Shown here: in pieces, positions 9,023 through 24,641 of the stretch
How positions within the stretch are numbered: the first letter of the stretch is position 1
How the letters are laid out: each line of letters starts with the position of its first letter
IMG/VR virus record: IMGVR_UViG_3300020469_000008
Coordinates: 32,001 to 96,000 of that record
Direction: 5' to 3' (one strand)
From: a virus
Taxonomy: Duplodnaviria > Caudoviricetes
DNA: 64,000 bases
Program-made: the position numbers and the translations under genes
Notes under the pieces: generated by a model
The model's input: the letters and a program-made list of their open reading frames with translations, nothing else
The model's database searches: none
Told to the model about the DNA's origin: nothing

Positions 9023-9851
9023 TAAAAAAAGAAACGTAGGTATTATATACGAGCTTTTATTAAATCATATTAGTACAAAGCTTCTGGAAGGGAAGAAAAG
9101 AGAAGCAAAAACTGCAACTAAATTAATTGAAAAGCACTTTAAAAAAGGCACAGAGCTTTACAAAGAATTTAGGCTTTTTAACGCGCTTGCGAAATCAGAT
9201 ATAACACAAACACATGTTGTTGCATCAATATTAAATGAGGCAAAAATTGCTAGCAGAAATCTTAACGAAAGACAGTTAGAACGTGAAAAATCATCGCTAC
9301 TTAAAGACATAAACTATAAAATTAATGAGAAAGATTTCTATTATAGAAGTATTGACAATTATCGCGATCTAGGTTTAGTTCAACTGACACTCAATGAGTG
9401 GCGCAAAGATGATAGAGATATTAAGCGTCTAGTCGACTTCGAAACACGATTGGGTGCATTAATGTTAAAAGAGAAGAATAAAGTAAATGAGCAAAAGTAT
9501 GATGCGTCTCACAGTGACAGATTGGTTTTAAAGATCATGACTGAAAAATTTAATAAACGTTACGGTGAAGAACTAACCAGAGATCAACAAAAAATTATTG
9601 AAGGTTATGTTTTCTTATCTGATAAGGAACCTGACAATTTAAAAAAGTTTTTTGAAACCAAAAAAGAAGAAGCTTTGAACAGTTTAGAAAACTTTGAAGA
9701 TATATCTGATAATCGTTACTTGTTATCAAAATTGGACGAAGTTCGAAAGAAAATTAATAATTTACCCTCTAATGACATTAACGATGCAAATGTTGTTAAG
9801 TTTTTGACTCTTACAAAGATGATAAATGAAATTAAAAAGGAGATATCATAA
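9012..9851 (+). CDS. conserved head-module hypothetical protein (between portal and protease)
   Basis: 279 aa helical ORF starting MKHNKKRNVGIIYELL; overlaps the portal end; GAGGA RBS. Confidence 0.7.
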   Translation: MKHNKKRNVGIIYELLLNHISTKLLEGKKREAKTATKLIEKHFKKGTELYKEFRLFNALAKSDITQTHVVASILNEAKIASRNLNERQLEREKSSLLKDINYKINEKDFYYRSIDNYRDLGLVQLTLNEWRKDDRDIKRLVDFETRLGALMLKEKNKVNEQKYDASHSDRLVLKIMTEKFNKRYGEELTRDQQKIIEGYVFLSDKEPDNLKKFFETKKEEALNSLENFEDISDNRYLLSKLDEVRKKINNLPSNDINDANVVKFLTLTKMINEIKKEIS

Positions 9852-9852
9852 T

Positions 9853-10455
9853 ATGTCTGCAGAATTAAATGTTTTAAGAGAATGGACACCTATTTCTTGT
9901 TCAAAGGAAATGTTAAAGGAATCCCGCGAGCAATATGGAAAAATAATGTTGACGGGAATCATCCAAAAAGCAAACACCTTAAATCAAAATGGGCGAGTAT
10001 ATCCTAAGCCGATTCTAGAAAGAGAAATAATGAATTACCAAAAGATGATTCGTGAAAATAGAGCGCTGGGAGAATGCGATCATCCTGATTCGTCTGTAGT
10101 TGAATTAAAAAATGTATCACATATTGTGAGAGAAGCTTACATGCAAGGTGATGATGTCTATGGTAAGATAGAGATACTAGACACTCCTAGCGGTAAAATT
10201 ATACAGTCTTTAATTGAAAGTGGCATTACGCTTGGTATTTCATCACGTGGCGTAGGCTCAACTGTATCACAGGGTGGTAATCAGGTTGTACAAGACGATT
10301 TCCAGTTAATTTGTTTTGATATGGTGTCTGAACCGTCAACTCCCGGTGCATTTATGCTAAAGGAGCACAAAGTTTTAAGAAAAGATTTAGATAAAATTTT
10401 TAACCAAACAGATAAAATCGATAGAATGTTTAATGAGATTCTGAGGTGGGAATGA
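9853..10455 (+). CDS. prohead core protein protease (T4 gp21-like)
   Basis: GIIQKANTLNQNGRVYP, ALGECDHP, NVSHIV, LGISSRGVGS, FDMVSEPSTPGAF; start placed at ATG 9853 after GGAG. Confidence 0.93.
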   Translation: MSAELNVLREWTPISCSKEMLKESREQYGKIMLTGIIQKANTLNQNGRVYPKPILEREIMNYQKMIRENRALGECDHPDSSVVELKNVSHIVREAYMQGDDVYGKIEILDTPSGKIIQSLIESGITLGISSRGVGSTVSQGGNQVVQDDFQLICFDMVSEPSTPGAFMLKEHKVLRKDLDKIFNQTDKIDRMFNEILRWE

Positions 10456-13894: not shown

Positions 13895-15847
13895 ATGAGT
13901 AAGTCATTTACTTTGAATCAGTTGACTGAAGGTATCCGTGATCGTCACGTAGGCCAAGAAGCAACAAGAATTCAAGAAAAGTGGACCAGAACTGGTCTTC
14001 TTCGTGGTCTACAAAACCACGCTCGCGAAAACATGTCACGTTTACTTGAGAACCAAGCAGCTCAAGTACTTCGTGAAGCAAACACCTTAGGTGGCACATC
14101 TGGTGACGCTGGTCGTGTTGATGGATTTTCAAACATCGCATTCCCAATCGTTCGTCGTGTATTTGGTGGATTAGTTGCAAATGAATTGGTATCTATTCAG
14201 CCTATGTCTCTTCCAAGTGGACTCTTGTTCTACTTAGATTATACATACGGTTCTGATGTAGGTGGTGATGCAACTGCTTCAGGAAATGCATTGACAGCAA
14301 CTGGTGGATCAACTTATAATCAAGGTGATTCTATTTACAACAACCCAGGTGGAGCCGGTGTTCGTACTGGTTCTGACGCAACTGGTGGTCAATACGATCT
14401 AGTTGGTTCTGGTTACTCTAAAGTGCACGGTAATGTTGCATTTAGCGCAACTGGTAATGCTCTTAACGGTGCAATGGGTGGAGCTGCAAATCAATCTTTT
14501 ACAATTGCAGCAAATCTAACTACAAGTGGTGCTGATGGTAAACTACTTCATTTTGATCCACAACTTTCACGTGAAATCAGTGAAGGTACTAACAACTATC
14601 AAGTTCTTTTCCTCTCTGCTTCTCTCTTGCGCGAAGCTTCTGGAAGACAAAGAAGAGTTGATCCTACTTTGATTAAAGAAGTTGCTCTTTATTCTGAAAA
14701 CGGTACTAATGGACGAGGTCCCGGTAATTTAGTATCAGGACTGACTGTTCCTGGTAGTAACATTCAAGGTGGTAGCAACATTTGGAACGTTAGACGTCTT
14801 AATGAGCTAGGTACTTTGACACACAGTGCTGCTGGTACAACTTTCACTCCTGATCCTTTCGCATCAGTAAGTGCAACAGGAACTGTACTTAAGACAATCG
14901 TACAAGGTGCAGCTACTTCGATGGCAGCTGTCGATACAGGATTAAACTTGTCTGCTTCATTCCCAGTAGCTGATCAATTGTCTGAATCTGGAGACGCTGA
15001 TACTGGTTCTGTTGTGGTAATTCCATCATTCGAATCAAACTTTGCTTCTGAACCTACACCAGTAATTCCAGAAATTGATATCAAAATTGAGTCAATTGCT
15101 GTTACAGCTACAACTCGTAAGTTAAGAGCTCGTTGGTCACCAGAACTCGCACAAGATCTTAATGCTTATCACTCAATGGATGCTGAAGTTGAATTGACTC
15201 AAATCCTTTCTGAGCAAATCGCATTAGAAATTGATCGTGAAATTCTTAATGACCTTCTTGTTGAAGCGAAAGGTGCTAACTTCTTCTGGTCACGTGCTCC
15301 TGGTAAGTTCGTTAACAAGAGAAGTGGTGTTGCTGAAAACTTGGCGTCATCTCTTTCAACTGGACCACAATTTACTGGTACAGTTCGTGAGTGGTACGAA
15401 ACATTGGTTGAAACTATCATTGACGTTGCTAACGAAATCCATAGAAAGACTCTTCGTGGTTCTGCGAACTTTATCGTAGTTTCACCTGAAGTTGCTACTA
15501 TCTTCGAAGCTTCTGTATTGTACAAGCCAAGTGTTAAGATCGATGGTCAAGGTCAAGTTGCCTTAGGTAGCATTGGTGCTGAAGCTATTGGTTCTCTTTC
15601 TAACAGATTTACTGTTTACAAAGATCCTTACTTCCCACGCAACAAGATTCTTGTAGGATACAAAGGTGGTTCATATCTTGAGTCTGGATACGTCTATGCT
15701 CCATATGTACCGTTGATTGTAACTCCAACAATCTTCGCACCAGAAGACTTCACACCAAGAAAAGGTGTAATGACTCGTTACGGTAAGAAAATGGTTCGCG
15801 CCGACTTCTACGGAACAGTTACTTGCTTGGATATGGATATTATCTAA
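13895..15847 (+). CDS. major capsid protein (T4 gp23-like)
   Basis: AFPIVRRVFGGLVANELVSIQPMSLPSGLLFYLD, RKLRARWSPELAQDLNAYH, YAPYVPL, FTPRKGVMTRYG; followed by a strong terminator. Confidence 0.95.
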   Translation: MSKSFTLNQLTEGIRDRHVGQEATRIQEKWTRTGLLRGLQNHARENMSRLLENQAAQVLREANTLGGTSGDAGRVDGFSNIAFPIVRRVFGGLVANELVSIQPMSLPSGLLFYLDYTYGSDVGGDATASGNALTATGGSTYNQGDSIYNNPGGAGVRTGSDATGGQYDLVGSGYSKVHGNVAFSATGNALNGAMGGAANQSFTIAANLTTSGADGKLLHFDPQLSREISEGTNNYQVLFLSASLLREASGRQRRVDPTLIKEVALYSENGTNGRGPGNLVSGLTVPGSNIQGGSNIWNVRRLNELGTLTHSAAGTTFTPDPFASVSATGTVLKTIVQGAATSMAAVDTGLNLSASFPVADQLSESGDADTGSVVVIPSFESNFASEPTPVIPEIDIKIESIAVTATTRKLRARWSPELAQDLNAYHSMDAEVELTQILSEQIALEIDREILNDLLVEAKGANFFWSRAPGKFVNKRSGVAENLASSLSTGPQFTGTVREWYETLVETIIDVANEIHRKTLRGSANFIVVSPEVATIFEASVLYKPSVKIDGQGQVALGSIGAEAIGSLSNRFTVYKDPYFPRNKILVGYKGGSYLESGYVYAPYVPLIVTPTIFAPEDFTPRKGVMTRYGKKMVRADFYGTVTCLDMDII

Positions 15848-22351: not shown

Positions 22352-23152
22352 ATGAAAGTTACACGACGTAAACTTAAAATGATTATTGAGTCTTTCCTTC
22401 ATGAAGAAAAGGAAAAACTTGAGAAAGATCACGGCAAAAAATATGTTTGCCCAAGCTGTGGTCATGTTCATGATTCTAAAGAAGATATTAATGCCCTCTG
22501 GTCAGGAAAAAAGTGTGTAAAGTGCGGTACAAAATTTGACCTAAAGACCGGTAAAGTTCCATCAGGTAAAGGCAAGGGGCAAAAGTGGGGAATTCATGCT
22601 AATACTAAAAGTGAGTCAAAATTAAGAATGCTTCGCGAAAAAAGACATCGTAGAAAAAGAAAACTAAGAGAAACTGCGAAAGAAACTGAATGTCCTACAG
22701 CGACAACAGACATTAGTGTTAACACAGCTAATCGCGACCGAGCTCGCAAACTTGACTGGATTATATACGGCCCTTTAAATGTAGAATTTCCGGGAAAGTA
22801 TTGGGAAAAGATATCAAAAAAGTGGGGAACAGACGTTGAAGCAGCAAAGAAGTCAAACTGTGGTGTTTGTGTTGCTTTTGATCGATCCCCGAAGATGGTT
22901 GATGAGTGCATACCTGCAATAACGTCTGAACCTGTTGCAGATGAGTTCGGTGTTTTAGGGTATTGCTGGATGCACCACTTTAAGTGTCACAGTGCAAGAA
23001 CATGTAACACTTGGGCAGCTGGTGGTCCGATTAAGACTGATGAAGCGTCAGGCGAATGGTTTGAACGTAATAAAGACGGTGCGTTAAAGAAAGATCCAAT
23101 CGATCCTAATATTTATAGGGACGATACTAATACTTCACAGGAGACAGAATGA
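22352..23152 (+). CDS. leader-bearing Cys-rich (zinc-binding) protein
   Basis: MKVTRRKLKMIIES; CPSC...CVKC ribbon; second domain CPTAT...YGP...NCGVCVAFD...GYCWMHHFKCHSARTC. Confidence 0.7.
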   Translation: MKVTRRKLKMIIESFLHEEKEKLEKDHGKKYVCPSCGHVHDSKEDINALWSGKKCVKCGTKFDLKTGKVPSGKGKGQKWGIHANTKSESKLRMLREKRHRRKRKLRETAKETECPTATTDISVNTANRDRARKLDWIIYGPLNVEFPGKYWEKISKKWGTDVEAAKKSNCGVCVAFDRSPKMVDECIPAITSEPVADEFGVLGYCWMHHFKCHSARTCNTWAAGGPIKTDEASGEWFERNKDGALKKDPIDPNIYRDDTNTSQETE

Positions 23153-24237
23153 AAATATCAAGAAGAAGAATTAGACAACTTATAAGAGAATCCCGCGAAG
23201 AACATATCCAGGGAATTAGAAGTAAACTAGTTAGATTAAATGACGAATTAGAAAACAGACAAGAGGCACTTGATGATTTAAACTATCAATCACAAAGTAT
23301 GATGGATTTTTATTCAGATGACCCATATGCTGGTAGAGATGAGATGATGGCCGGTGACCCGATTAGAGATCAAATATATGACATCGAAAACAAGATAACA
23401 TTGTTGCAAAATCAACTAGATGCTTTAGAAGCTGCTAATGGTGGCCCGGTAGGTCAACTACCAAGGGGTAGAATATTCGAAGAAGTTTCTGATCTGACTG
23501 ATGAAAAACAAAAAGAAATAGATGACGCAGTTGCTGATTATTTAGCCAAAGAAGGCGGAGCAGCATCTGAAGAGGGAACCGAAGATATTGTTCGTGACAA
23601 GGTTGATGGCATTGATGCAAAATCGTATCTTTCAAACAATGAAAGATTTAAGCAGCTAACAGTAAATAACGACCCAATGGACTATTATGATACAACTTTA
23701 ACTGAAGCTAGAGTCTTTATTAGAGAGAAATTAGAAAAAATTGGTTTTTACAAGAAGTACGGTTACGGATTAGATGATATACCAAACAAAACAAAAGCGC
23801 ATGACGATATCATAGGGCACACGTGACTGACCCACGTTAAGCGGAAGGATTCTGCTTTAAATGAAGTTGGTGAAGTTTTATGGCACAGCCTTGATGAAAG
23901 TGGTCACATATCTGTTTATGACGTCGAATGGTCAGACGGTACAATTGAAAGAGATATCCCAGCAATTTTATTAGAAAAAGTTAAAGATAGTAATGCTGTC
24001 GACGAGGTTCACGAGGCACACGGTGTAGACGGACATAGACTAGATTCTGCTATCGATGAGAGAAAGTACAAGAAAAAGAAAAAAACAAAGAAACGTAAAA
24101 AGAAAAAGCATAGTTTGTACCCATATGTGTTTGGGTTTGGCTATCACCACGATGCTGAAAATTATGATTATGATATCGGTGGTGATTATGGAGATTTTGG
24201 AGGCGGCTTCGGTGACGGAGGCGGTGGTGGAGAATGA
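23149..24237 (+). CDS. leader-bearing protein with in-frame TGA at 23824-23826; candidate selenoprotein (362 codons if read through)
   Basis: After the TGA the same frame stays open for 136 codons (LTHVKRKDSALNEVGEVLWHSLDESGHISVYDVEWSDGTIERDIP...GGGGGE) and ends in an ATGA overlap with ORF 24234; hairpin directly after the TGA. Confidence 0.65.
23837..23860 (+). promoter_or_regulatory. bacterial SECIS-like hairpin
   Basis: TTAAGCGGAA-GGA-TTCTGC(T)TTAA: 10 pairs, one bulged U, G-first apical loop; starts 10 nt after the in-frame UGA, loop 20 nt from the UGA. Confidence 0.55.
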
Positions 24238-24641
24238 AAATAGATAAAGATAGATTACGTAGAATTATAAGTGAAAGTATTGATGAAAATATGGGCACTG
24301 CGATGAAAATTAAAACAGATTTACTTTCAACTTATGATCGTTCGTATGTTTCACAAGCATATGAGCTGTGTGATGCATTAGGACTTGATTTTGCACAAAT
24401 GGTGAGAGAAATGTTAAGTCAAAAGATTGATAGTATAGATTTTCAGAATCACGTTCATGAATGGGTTAACGAGTTACTAGCAATTTTTCATACTGGTAAG
24501 GAAAACGACTTTTACATTGAAGATGAAAAATTCGAATCAGATGTTCAAATGGATTTTGCATTTAAAACTATCGCTGATATAACTAAAAATCTTGAAGATT
24601 ATTATGTCAATTTATTTGTAGCGATAGGTCAAGGTCGATAA
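24234..24641 (+). CDS. leader-bearing hypothetical protein
   Basis: MKIDKDRLRRIISES; GGTGGAG RBS lies inside the readthrough frame. Confidence 0.7.
   Translation: MKIDKDRLRRIISESIDENMGTAMKIKTDLLSTYDRSYVSQAYELCDALGLDFAQMVREMLSQKIDSIDFQNHVHEWVNELLAIFHTGKENDFYIEDEKFESDVQMDFAFKTIADITKNLEDYYVNLFVAIGQGR

What the first reader, a model, noticed from the sequence alone, without database searches (positions are those of the whole stretch)
23149..24237. Candidate phage-encoded selenoprotein: in-frame UGA in an H-x-U-x-x-H motif
Seen: the track stops this gene at TGA 23824-23826, but the same frame continues for 136 sense codons (AHDDIIGHT*LTHVKRKDSALNEVGEVLWHSLDESGHISVYDVEWSDGTIERDIPAILLEKV...KYKKKKKTKKRKKKK...YDYDIGGDYGDFGGGFGDGGGGGE*). 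Its real stop overlaps the next start (ATGA at 24234), as in neighbouring coupled genes, and no in-frame ATG follows the TGA. From memory, not searched: T4-like marine phages carry a module of the form HxCATHV...HTLDExGxxxHYDVxFExGIExNVP, which would put the TGA exactly on a conserved Cys. TGA is an ordinary stop elsewhere in the window, so this is site-specific. Inference: UGA is decoded as selenocysteine by host SelB/tRNA-Sec, giving a His/Sec metal or redox site rather than the usual CxxU. The protein also has the putative capsid-targeting leader and IRE/LLE sites flanking the module, so a Sec module may be packaged in the virion. Selenoproteins are, to my knowledge, barely described in bacteriophages.
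Basis: partly seen in the sequence, partly recalled or inferred. Interest (0 to 1): 0.95.

Follow-up and report, generated by a model that had tools for sequence, protein, structure and literature searches.

The report
Candidate selenoprotein in marine jumbo phages
A late gene of an uncultured marine T4-like jumbo phage has a UGA stop codon in its reading frame that is kept in every relative found, lies where distant relatives have cysteine, and is followed by a conserved RNA hairpin of the bacterial selenocysteine-insertion type. It is therefore most likely a natural phage-encoded selenoprotein, which the literature searched here does not describe.

Summary
ORF 23149-23826 ends at TGA 23824-26. 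The same frame stays open for 136 codons with no ATG, and ends at the ATGA overlap at 24234-37.

The TGA is not an error or a recent mutation:
- All 80 loci kept from the metagenome scan, and every viral-contig relative with the motif, carry TGA at this column. That is 74 distinct sequence contexts, at about 45-90% protein identity.
- Database homologues that show 'W' at this column were translated with genetic code 4. All eight checked have TGA.

More distant homologues carry a real Cys codon there. They include T4-like cyanophages.

A hairpin of about 8 bp follows the TGA, and its loop starts 20 nt after the UGA in the window (18-20 nt across the family).
- It shows compensatory changes at 7 of 8 pairs.
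- Synonymous variation is suppressed over it.
- Its loop sits within 2 nt of the position in the E. coli fdhF SECIS.
- It is absent from the Cys forms.

Codons downstream are under protein-level purifying selection. TGA is a normal stop elsewhere in the phage.

Best explanation (about 0.7): Sec is inserted by the host's SelB. The protein is probably a capsid-targeted internal protein with an SH3-like domain and an H-x-U-x-x-H arm.

Not shown: the host, its Sec machinery, and selenium incorporation.

The parts
23149..24237 (+). Full recoded gene: 362 codons, with UGA as codon 226, plus the terminal TGA
   Evidence: Translation. The start is an ATGA overlap with the upstream gene and is preceded by AGGAG.
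23149..23190 (+). N-terminal leader MKISRRRIRQLIRE, a putative capsid-targeting sequence that ends in an L/I-x-E site
   Evidence: At least 22 ORFs of the phage record share the same leader. It is the family consensus. Its function is inferred.
23716..23727 (+). Internal F-I-R-E, a degenerate copy of the end of the leader just before the conserved module; putative protease site
   Evidence: In the homologues a leader-like K-x-L-R-x-L-I-x-E-E-L directly precedes the module (alignment; short forms such as P0027). Cleavage is inferred.
23728..24051 (+). Conserved module that spans the UGA. It is the only well-conserved part of the family apart from the leader.
   Evidence: Alignment A1 has 87% mean column identity. 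The exhaustive profile search found 98 clusters.
23818..23835 (+). H-T-U-L-T-H motif (H-x-U-x-x-H)
   Evidence: The Cys forms read H-S-C-A-T-H, H-A-C-A-N-H and H-D-C-P-K-H.
23824..23826 (+). In-frame UGA, the proposed Sec codon
   Evidence: TGA at this column in all relatives examined.
23839..23857 (+). SECIS-like hairpin AAGCGGAA-GGA-UUCUGCUU. Its loop starts 20 nt after the UGA. A weaker lower stem extends it to about 23835-23863.
   Evidence: Folds. Covariation. Suppressed synonymous variation at codons +4 to +12. E. coli fdhF control.
23833..23979 (+). Predicted SH3/Tudor-like five-stranded beta barrel (residues 229-277)
   Evidence: AlphaFold2 model with pLDDT about 87-94 over this stretch. 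Weak Foldseek matches to SH3-like folds.
24010..24036 (+). His-rich stretch HEAHGVDGH. An H-x-H motif is found across the family, Cys forms included.
   Evidence: Alignments. The model has low confidence here.
24064..24108 (+). Poly-lysine tract KYKKKKKTKKRKKKK
   Evidence: Present in most family members.
24109..24234 (+). Tail rich in Gly, Asp and aromatic residues, ending GGGGGE. Some relatives lack it.
   Evidence: The sub-threshold Pfam YxzE match reflects composition only.
24235..24237 (+). True terminal TGA, in an ATGA overlap with the next leader-bearing gene (24234-24641)
9826..10455 (+). Context: T4-type prohead core serine protease, the enzyme that would cut L/I-x-E sites
   Evidence: Pfam PF03420 Peptidase_S77, E = 4.7e-28.

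Best explanation
Gene 23149-24237 encodes one 362-residue protein in which UGA at codon 226 is read as selenocysteine.

Proposed mechanism: the ribosome reaches the UGA. The mRNA hairpin at 23839-23857, whose stem starts 12 nt after the UGA and whose G-first loop starts 20 nt after it, acts as a bacterial-type SECIS. It recruits the host's SelB-GTP-Sec-tRNA(Sec), and Sec is inserted in competition with RF2. Termination instead would give a 225-residue product.

Shown here:
- The TGA is conserved.
- Distant homologues have Cys at the column.
- The hairpin is conserved and shows covariation.
- The downstream frame is translated.
- The recoding is site-specific.

Inferred:
- The residue inserted is Sec, and the machinery is the host's.
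- The protein is a late, capsid-targeted internal protein. Its MKI-x-RR-x-x-R-x-LI-x-E leader and the internal FIRE site would be cut by the T4-type prohead protease. That would release a fragment of about 170 residues: the H-x-U-x-x-H arm, an SH3-like barrel, an H-x-H stretch, a poly-Lys tract that could bind DNA, and an acidic Gly-rich tail.
- Sec and the conserved histidines form a metal-binding or redox-active site.
For: 1. TGA at the identical column in the window and in 4 viral contigs first found, at 52-86% identity. It is also in every motif-bearing locus of a wider viral scan and in 80 of 80 metagenome loci kept, out of 176 relatives detected.
2. Database homologues that show W at the column are TGA read by code 4. 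This held for P0014, P0007, P0010, P0074, P0117, P0054, P0103 and P0100.
3. Real Cys codons at the column in P0091, P0093 and P0107 (checked in the DNA), and C in the database sequences of P0095, P0101 and P0113, which no genetic code translates from TGA. Also in cyanophage S-B64 and Marine virus AG-345-E15.
4. Hairpin: 92.7% of cells paired against 78% in shuffles, and 7 of 8 pairs changed on both sides. None of 500 shuffles reached the observed values on any measure. Slid registers gave 42-61%. The changes include a synonymous CGG-to-AGG switch together with matching changes opposite. Distant members have unrelated stems at the same position.
5. Synonymous diversity is 0-0.26 at codons +4 to +12, against about 0.5-0.7 in the flanks.
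6. Many downstream codons are invariant in amino acid but have high synonymous diversity, so the frame is translated.
7. In the E. coli fdhF control the loop starts 18 nt after the UGA with GGUC. In the phage it starts 20 nt after with GGA.
8. Hairpin stability at +9 to +38 averages -7.8 kcal/mol in the TGA forms (n = 31). In five Cys forms it is -0.1 to -5.4.
9. On a tree of the module all TGA forms lie on one side of a branch with 96/88 support, so one switch suffices.
10. The family meets the published computational criteria for new selenoproteins: conserved TGA/Cys pairs, at least 2 Cys homologues, a SECIS-like stem-loop directly downstream, and at least 2 different TGA sequences (PMC1088965).
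Against: - The host is unknown, so the presence of selA, selB, selC and selD could not be checked.
- None of these was found in the phage records held. tRNA-Sec, selA and selD were searched in G000 and 4-5 related records that are 28-77% complete. selB was searched in G000 only.
- The nearest cultured relatives by capsid protein infect Flavobacterium, Microcystis and Rhodothermus. From memory, these groups are not known for wide use of Sec.
- No Rfam family matched the region.
- H-x-U-x-x-H is not a usual selenoprotein redox motif such as CxxU or UxxC.
- No Sec-to-Cys reversion was seen inside the TGA clade, although such reversions are common in cellular selenoprotein families.
- Sec insertion is inefficient in bacteria, which is awkward for a structural-module gene.
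- The U lies in a part of the structure model with lower confidence.
Confidence: 0.7

Rival explanations
1. Programmed UGA read-through without SelB. The hairpin or the UGA-C context makes termination leaky, and a near-cognate tRNA (Trp or Cys) inserts a standard residue. This would give a fixed ratio of a short 225-residue and a long 362-residue product, as in the Q-beta A1 protein.
For: - Most family members have C directly after the UGA. From memory, UGA-C is a weak termination context in E. coli.
- No Sec machinery was found in the phage records.
- No reversion to Cys inside the clade, which would fit selection for the stop itself.
- Conserved in-frame stops with read-through are reported as widespread in bacteria (PMC7918605, listed; abstract only).
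Against: - No TGG was seen at the column in more than 100 sequences, although it is one mutation away.
- The distant homologues have Cys, never Trp.
- The hairpin matches the SECIS position and has a G-first loop.
- In short family members the truncated product would be only about 48 residues, mostly leader (P0027). The part upstream of the module is poorly conserved.
- To my knowledge, hairpin-stimulated read-through has not been described in bacteria.
Confidence: 0.15
2. Two separate polypeptides. Translation ends at UGA 226, and the downstream module is made by re-initiation or coupling at a non-canonical start.
For: Neighbouring genes in this phage are tightly coupled through ATGA overlaps. 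Gene callers split the gene at the TGA: about 20 database clusters end in ...IIGHT.
Against: - No ATG, GTG or TTG in frame for 96 codons after the TGA.
- The codon after the TGA varies (CTG, CTA, CTT, TTA, GCN), so no start is conserved.
- Amino-acid conservation runs unbroken across the stop.
- The Cys forms are single continuous ORFs.
Confidence: 0.06
3. Global or late-phase reassignment of the stop codon (TGA as a sense codon, code 4-like), driven by a phage suppressor tRNA in the unsequenced 30% of the genome.
For: Public gene callers chose code 4 for many of these contigs. The record is only about 70% complete.
Against: - TGA ends 31 of 138 long plus-strand ORFs, including both neighbours of this gene.
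- Under code 4 the products gain spurious tails such as ...GGGEWK.
- Only one coding-strand TGA in 202 kb has a long extension without a start codon.
- The phage tRNAs found are Arg, Gly, Met, Leu, Lys, Asn and Thr.
Confidence: 0.03
4. Artefact or pseudogene: an assembly error or a recent nonsense mutation.
For: None found.
Against: The same TGA occurs in 74 distinct contexts from many independent samples and assemblers. The downstream codons are under purifying selection.
Confidence: 0.01

Closest known systems
Bacterial selenoprotein genes with an in-ORF SECIS (type case: E. coli fdhF, formate dehydrogenase H)
   Same: An in-frame UGA is followed directly by a coding-region stem-loop whose small apical loop starts with G. 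The loop starts 18 nt after the UGA in fdhF and 20 nt after it here. Homologues have Cys at the column.
   Different: The gene is carried by a virus, which has no Sec machinery of its own in the parts held. The protein family is unrelated. The motif is H-x-U-x-x-H on an SH3-like domain, not a molybdopterin or thiol-redox site. The loop is GGA/GGG (possibly A-GGR-U) rather than GGUC, and the stem lacks fdhF's bulged U.
Selenoprotein families predicted from marine metagenomes (Sargasso Sea and GOS surveys; PMC1088965, PMC2398784)
   Same: The same kind of evidence supports it: conserved TGA/Cys pairs plus a SECIS-like hairpin with a loop G. It comes from the same habitat.
   Different: The family's motifs are absent from the supplementary sequence files of the GOS paper as held; one of those files is cut. 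GOS_A and GOS_B are other proteins. Those surveys assign their families to cellular microbes and do not mention phages.
Cys-containing homologues in T4-like cyanophages (for example Synechococcus phage S-B64 hypothetical protein AWD90116.1) and Marine virus AG-345-E15
   Same: The same module: H-D-C..., then an x-H-x-[LM] strand, Y-D-[IV], E-N-V-P, and an H-x-H stretch.
   Different: They have a real TGT codon, no hairpin at the matching position, different flanking regions and no MKITRRQL leader. The cyanophage protein is 570 residues long.
Poxvirus glutathione peroxidases (molluscum contagiosum GPx1, fowlpox GPx4), the viral selenoproteins described so far (PMC1802603)
   Same: A virus-encoded selenoprotein that depends on the host's Sec machinery. 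Fowlpox also has its SECIS inside the ORF.
   Different: Those are eukaryotic viruses with eukaryotic SECIS elements, and the genes were captured from the host and have a known function. Here the virus is a phage, the SECIS is of the bacterial type, and no cellular homologue was found.
T4 internal proteins (IPI-III, Alt) with a capsid-targeting sequence cut by the gp21 prohead protease
   Same: A short N-terminal leader that ends in L/I-x-E. The gene lies in the late head/neck region, and a gp21-type (S77) protease gene is nearby.
   Different: The leader sequence differs from T4's (from memory). At least 22 genes carry it here. Packaging and cleavage are untested.
Q-beta A1 read-through protein (UGA read as Trp)
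   Same: A phage gene with a leaky UGA that would give a C-terminally extended minor product.
   Different: Here the homologues have Cys at the column, and a SECIS-like hairpin is conserved. Neither is a feature of Q-beta (from memory).

Membership tests
Bacterial-type selenoprotein gene (UGA + SECIS) | The in-frame UGA is conserved among homologues | tested here: met
   TGA in 80 of 80 metagenome loci, in all motif-bearing viral contigs, and in 8 of 8 database proteins with 'W' that were checked.
Bacterial-type selenoprotein gene (UGA + SECIS) | Cys at the aligned column in other homologues (Sec/Cys pair; at least 2 Cys homologues) | tested here: met
   P0091, P0093, P0095, P0101, P0107 and P0113; the TGY codon was verified for three of them. 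Also cyanophage S-B64 and AG-345-E15.
Bacterial-type selenoprotein gene (UGA + SECIS) | A stem-loop directly downstream of the UGA, with a small apical loop that contains G, at a SECIS-like distance | tested here: met
   The loop starts 20 nt after the UGA in the window (18-20 nt across the family), against 18 nt in fdhF. Covariation at 7 of 8 pairs, reached by none of 500 shuffles. Loops are GGA, GGG, GUU, AGUU and CGUGA. The numerical limits of the published consensus are recalled from memory only.
Bacterial-type selenoprotein gene (UGA + SECIS) | The frame downstream of the UGA is translated (purifying selection on the protein) | tested here: met
   Many invariant residues with synonymous diversity of 0.5-0.8. 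The extension has no start codon.
Bacterial-type selenoprotein gene (UGA + SECIS) | Sec machinery (selA, selB, selC, selD) is available in the cell where the gene is expressed | tested here: inconclusive
   Not found in the incomplete phage records G000-G005. The host could not be identified.
Bacterial-type selenoprotein gene (UGA + SECIS) | Selenium is incorporated at the UGA position | not testable with these tools
   Needs 75Se labelling or mass spectrometry.
Rfam RNA families (all 4227 models, any SECIS families included) | A covariance-model match | tested here: not met
   No SECIS family appeared among matches up to E = 10 over 23700-24000. From memory, the curated SECIS models do not represent short in-ORF bacterial elements well, so this weighs little.
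Phages with a reassigned stop codon (code 4 or 15) | The stop codon is used as a sense codon in many genes and is rare as a terminator | tested here: not met
   TGA ends 31 of 138 long plus-strand ORFs. Only one start-less in-frame TGA on the coding strand in 202 kb.
T4-type capsid-targeted internal proteins | An N-terminal targeting leader with an L/I-x-E cleavage site, and a gp21-type prohead protease in the genome | tested here: met
   The leader MKISRRRIRQLIRE is shared by at least 22 ORFs. Peptidase_S77 lies at 9826-10455. These are sequence features only.
T4-type capsid-targeted internal proteins | The protein is present in the capsid and is processed by the protease | not testable with these tools
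   Needs virion proteomics.
SH3/Tudor-like small beta barrels | A five-stranded barrel with a significant structural match | tested here: inconclusive
   The model has five strands with pLDDT about 90. The best Foldseek hits are YorP, Pex13 SH3, PetP and Tudor domains at E >= 0.09. No PDB relative by sequence.

The most novel reading that the evidence does not exclude
A widespread clade of marine T4-like jumbo phages makes a true selenoprotein using the host's SelB pathway and packages it in the capsid as an ejected internal protein. Sec would act together with conserved histidines as a metal or redox centre. This would be the first natural phage selenoprotein. It would tie the production of a virion protein, and perhaps infectivity and host range, to the host's Sec trait and to the selenium supply in the sea.
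Probability: 0.5. Interest if true: 0.9.

Novelty: new variant of a known kind. Interest (0 to 1): 0.85.

Why it matters
- Recoding of UGA to selenocysteine is known in cells and in a few poxviruses. Five full-text searches of the held library and the selenoproteome papers checked for phage or virus terms turned up no natural phage selenoprotein.
- If this one is real, phages can carry working bacterial-type SECIS elements and use a specialised host translation pathway.
- Making this virion protein, and possibly infectivity, would then depend on the host's Sec trait and on a trace element.
- A new selenoprotein family with an unusual H-x-U-x-x-H site on an SH3-like domain would be added.
- There is also a practical lesson. 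Public gene callers either cut this gene at the TGA or switch whole contigs to code 4, which writes a false Trp and false C-terminal tails into protein databases.
- The claim can be tested directly with a reporter in selB+ and selB- strains.

Tried and rejected
- **Family searches.** Pfam and PHROGs scans of the full and split products gave nothing above threshold. The YxzE hit is compositional.
- **GenBank phages.** tblastn of the read-through protein against 50,697 phage records found no match.
- **Rfam.** An E-value scan gave only chance hits.
- **'W' at the column.** I first read this as evidence for Trp. I rejected it because all eight proteins checked have TGA in the DNA and were translated by code 4.
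- **Sub-threshold tRNA-Sec hits.** The best hits in two related phage records proved to be tRNA-Leu(taa), and the third a tRNA-Arg(tct).
- **Two other long extensions after a TGA in the phage.** Both are ordinary adjacent genes in the same frame.
- **Bacterial genomes.** A scan for the module found none.
- **Host inference.** A scan with the phage's sugar epimerase/dehydratase found nothing. ESM Atlas neighbours were spread over many phyla. The host remains unknown.
- **Structure.** Foldseek against the PDB gave only weak SH3-like matches. A PDB sequence profile search gave none.
- **GOS families.** GOS_A and GOS_B were considered as the same family and rejected on sequence.
- **First wide alignment.** It was too diverse for the locus finder and was replaced by a closer one.
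- **Complex prediction.** Not attempted, because no binding claim is made.
Full report
**1. Observation**

The window lies at bases 32001-96000 of a 202-kb IMG/VR virus record that is estimated to be 70% complete.

- The ORF at 23149-23826 stops at TGA 23824-26.
- The same frame runs on for 136 sense codons, with no Met, to TGA 24235-37. That stop forms an ATGA overlap with the next gene.
- The first common start codon in frame after the internal TGA is TTG at 24115.
- The residues around the stop read H-T-U-L-T-H.

**2. TGA is otherwise a normal stop**

- In the whole record, TGA ends 31 of 138 long plus-strand ORFs. Both neighbours of this gene are among them.
- Among TGA-terminated ORFs, only three have a read-through extension longer than 50 codons.
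- Two of those are ordinary adjacent genes in the same frame, with a start codon 1-2 codons after the stop.
- A scan of every in-frame TGA in the record singles out this site on the coding strand. It has 231 open codons before it and 136 after it. No start codon follows for 97 codons, and the hairpin energy is -8.3 kcal/mol.
- A global reassignment of TGA is therefore rejected.

**3. The TGA is conserved**

- Four viral contigs at 52-86% protein identity have TGA at exactly this column.
- A wider scan of viral contigs gave 33 loci. Every locus that contains the motif has TGA.
- The metagenome scan detected 176 relatives. All 80 that were kept have TGA.
- Together these make 74 distinct 48-nt contexts.
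- The protein databases hold 16 full-length homologues that show W at the column. This looked like evidence for Trp.
- It is not. The DNA of every one I looked up has TGA, and the product matches only if TGA is read as W. These were P0014, P0007, P0010, P0074, P0117, P0054, P0103 and P0100.
- These contigs were called with genetic code 4. That also explains spurious C-terminal ends such as ...GGGEWK, where the true terminal TGA was read through.
- About twenty further database clusters are N-terminal fragments that end in ...IIGHT.
- Sequencing error and recent nonsense mutation are excluded.

**4. The column is Cys in distant homologues**

An exhaustive profile search of 1.84 billion cluster representatives found 98 clusters.

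- Several that span the column have a real Cys: H-S-C-A-S-H-V (P0091), G-H-S-C-A-T-H-V (P0093), H-S-C-A-T-H-A (P0101), G-H-A-C-A-N-H-V (P0107) and H-D-C-P-K-H-V (P0095, P0113).
- Their DNA translates under the standard code with TGY at the column.
- The Cys form also occurs in cultured T4-like cyanophages (S-B64, S-H35, S-RIM4, ACG-2014a, S-MbCM100) and in Marine virus AG-345-E15.
- On a maximum-likelihood tree of the module, all TGA forms lie on one side of a branch with 96/88 support and all Cys forms on the other. One switch therefore suffices, and the TGA has been kept over deep divergence.
- Caveat on the tree: for some rows the TGA label rests on the W pattern, not on a DNA look-up.

**5. 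A SECIS-like hairpin**

- In the window, the 21 nt GTTAAGCGGAAGGATTCTGCT are identical in the five first sequences, synonymous sites included.
- They fold as AAGCGGAA-GGA-UUCUGCUU.
- Across the family the stem sequence changes but the pairing and the position do not. Variants include CGGAAGAA-GGG-UUCUUCC, GGAGGAA-GGG-UUCCUCC and AAGAGGAA-GGG-UUCCUCUU.
- Distant members have unrelated stems at the same place: AGUGGAA-GUU-UUCCGCU, ACUUGGGG-GGA-CUCCAAGU, AAGAUUCA-GGA-UGAAUCUU, AAAGCUG-AGUU-CAGCUUU and GUACAC-CGUGA-GUGUAC.
- Counted on 31 distinct sequences, 92.7% of cells pair, against 78% in shuffles.
- Seven of the 8 pairs show changes on both sides, and none of 500 shuffles reaches the observed values on any measure.
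- Sliding the partner strand drops pairing to 42-61%.
- Some compensations use synonymous codon switches (Arg CGG to AGG, Ser TCT to TCC) together with an Ala-to-Ser replacement opposite. This points to selection on the RNA.
- Synonymous diversity falls to 0-0.26 at codons +4 to +12, against about 0.5-0.7 on both sides.
- As a control I folded the experimentally established SECIS of E. coli fdhF, taken from the K-12 record. Its GGUC loop starts 18 nt after the UGA. The phage GGA loop starts 20 nt after.
- The five Cys-form genes examined have no comparable hairpin at the matching place. Their energies are -0.1 to -5.4 kcal/mol, against a mean of -7.8 for 31 TGA forms.
- Rfam has no matching family.

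**6. The downstream frame is translated**

- Many residues after the TGA are invariant in 28 core sequences while their codons vary freely. Examples are G+15, V+17, H+20, S+21, Y+31 and D+32, with synonymous diversity of 0.35-0.79.
- Conservation runs unbroken across the stop.
- There is no conserved start. The codon after the TGA is CTG, CTA, CTT, TTA or GCN.

**7. What the protein is**

- The phage is a distant T4-like myovirus.
- Its major capsid protein is closest to those of Microcystis phage Mel-JY01 (34.5%), Flavobacterium phage immuto (44.7%), Rhodothermus phage RM378 and uncultured huge phages.
- The window carries a T4-type terminase, a gp20-type portal, an S77 prohead protease, a gp13-like neck protein and the tail sheath.
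- The gene sits just upstream of the gp13-like gene, as it does in related contigs.
- It begins with MKISRRRIRQLIRE.
- At least 22 ORFs of the record start with the same leader, and five of them sit around this gene.
- Together with the S77 protease, this supports the idea of a capsid-targeting leader cut at L/I-x-E. The idea is not proven.
- Upstream of the module the family is very variable in length and sequence. In many members a second leader-like K-x-L-R-x-L-I-x-E-E-L directly precedes the module. In this gene it is degenerate, as FIRE-KLEK. In the shortest members the N-terminal leader itself abuts the module.
- The mature product is thus probably the module.
- AlphaFold2, run with 36 sequences, predicts a five-stranded SH3/Tudor-like barrel for residues 229-277 with pLDDT about 90. 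The H-x-U-x-x-H arm before it has lower confidence.
- Foldseek finds only weak SH3-like matches, and the PDB has no sequence relative.
- Residues conserved across both Sec and Cys forms suggest a metal or redox site. They are His-2, Cys/Sec, mostly His+3, the His of W-H-S-L and an H-x-H after the barrel. This is inference.
- No homologue was found in 185,579 bacterial and archaeal species genomes.

**8. What is missing**

- The host is unknown. My attempts to infer it failed.
- The phage records held carry no tRNA-Sec, selA or selD; selB was searched in G000 only. They are 28-77% complete.
- Sec insertion would therefore have to rely on the host.
- The hosts of the Cys forms that are known are marine Synechococcus.
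- As a small consistency hint only, the selA family gave no hit in the Synechococcus elongatus control genome.

**9. Comparison and novelty**

- The family meets the criteria used to declare new selenoprotein families in marine metagenomes (PMC1088965).
- It is not among the new GOS families whose sequences are held.
- The viral selenoproteins described are poxvirus glutathione peroxidases with eukaryotic SECIS elements (PMC1802603).
- Full-text searches found no report of a natural phage selenoprotein.
- A 2026 review of prokaryotic selenoproteomes does not mention phages.

**10. Verdict**

- The feature is real and under strong selection.
- Selenocysteine insertion through a bacterial-type SECIS is the best explanation, at about 0.7.
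- The main rival is hairpin-associated read-through without SelB, at about 0.15.
- The decisive tests are a selB- and selenium-dependent reporter assay, mass spectrometry of residue 226, and identification of the host.

Noticed in passing
G000:C1:151825-152161 (locus L075:3825-4161; outside the window): The phage record carries a one-piece tmRNA gene with tag peptide ANNNNFYDVALAA. It also carries tRNA-Arg(tct), tRNA-Gly(gcc) and tRNA-Met(cat) at 180970-181794.
   Followed up: no
window 15956, 16617, 20463, 21836, 22352, 23149, 24234; 15 more sites elsewhere in G000: At least 22 ORFs begin with nearly the same leader, MKITRRQLRKLI-x-E. They look like a very large set of putative capsid-targeted proteins that would be processed by the S77 prohead protease at 9826-10455.
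   Followed up: partly
L006:6001-6681, L009:4001-4795, L010:2640-3401 and other database entries (P0003-P0018): Public gene calls for many contigs of this phage group use code 4 (TGA = Trp). This writes a false W at the recoded site and false tails such as ...GGGEWK where true terminal TGAs are read through.
   Followed up: yes
P0032 (2515 aa) and P0079 (543 aa): The SH3-like part of the module (profile positions about 53-95), without the H-x-U arm, is repeated 20 times in one giant protein and 7 times in another.
   Followed up: no
window 22352-23152: The upstream neighbour also carries the leader and has an FmdB-like CxxC...CxxC zinc ribbon (PHROG match). The GOS survey lists an FmdB-family selenoprotein with CxxU, but this copy has Cys.
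   Followed up: no
L003:3355-3600, L004 and L005 (relatives); window 24064-24108: Some relatives stop right after K-Y-K-K and lack the poly-Lys tract and the Gly/Asp-rich tail. The A-rich tract that encodes the lysines could be prone to slippage.
   Followed up: no
G000:C1:104813-148403 (loci L072-L074): Genes in the phage record that look like cellular genes: ThyX, two NAD-dependent sugar epimerase/dehydratases, a GroEL-type chaperonin (532 aa), a PAS-domain histidine kinase, a YkuD-type L,D-transpeptidase and an ATP-dependent DNA ligase.
   Followed up: no
L050:1201-1314 (IMGVR_UViG_3300030099_008323); P0108, P0115: Stand-alone versions of the downstream domain start at MREGRLSS... or MKEGKLSS... 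They lack the H-x-U arm and so have no TGA.
   Followed up: no
window 13895-15847: The major capsid protein is 650 aa. The match to the T4-type head protein covers only residues 319-633, so it has a long N-terminal extension of unknown nature.
   Followed up: no
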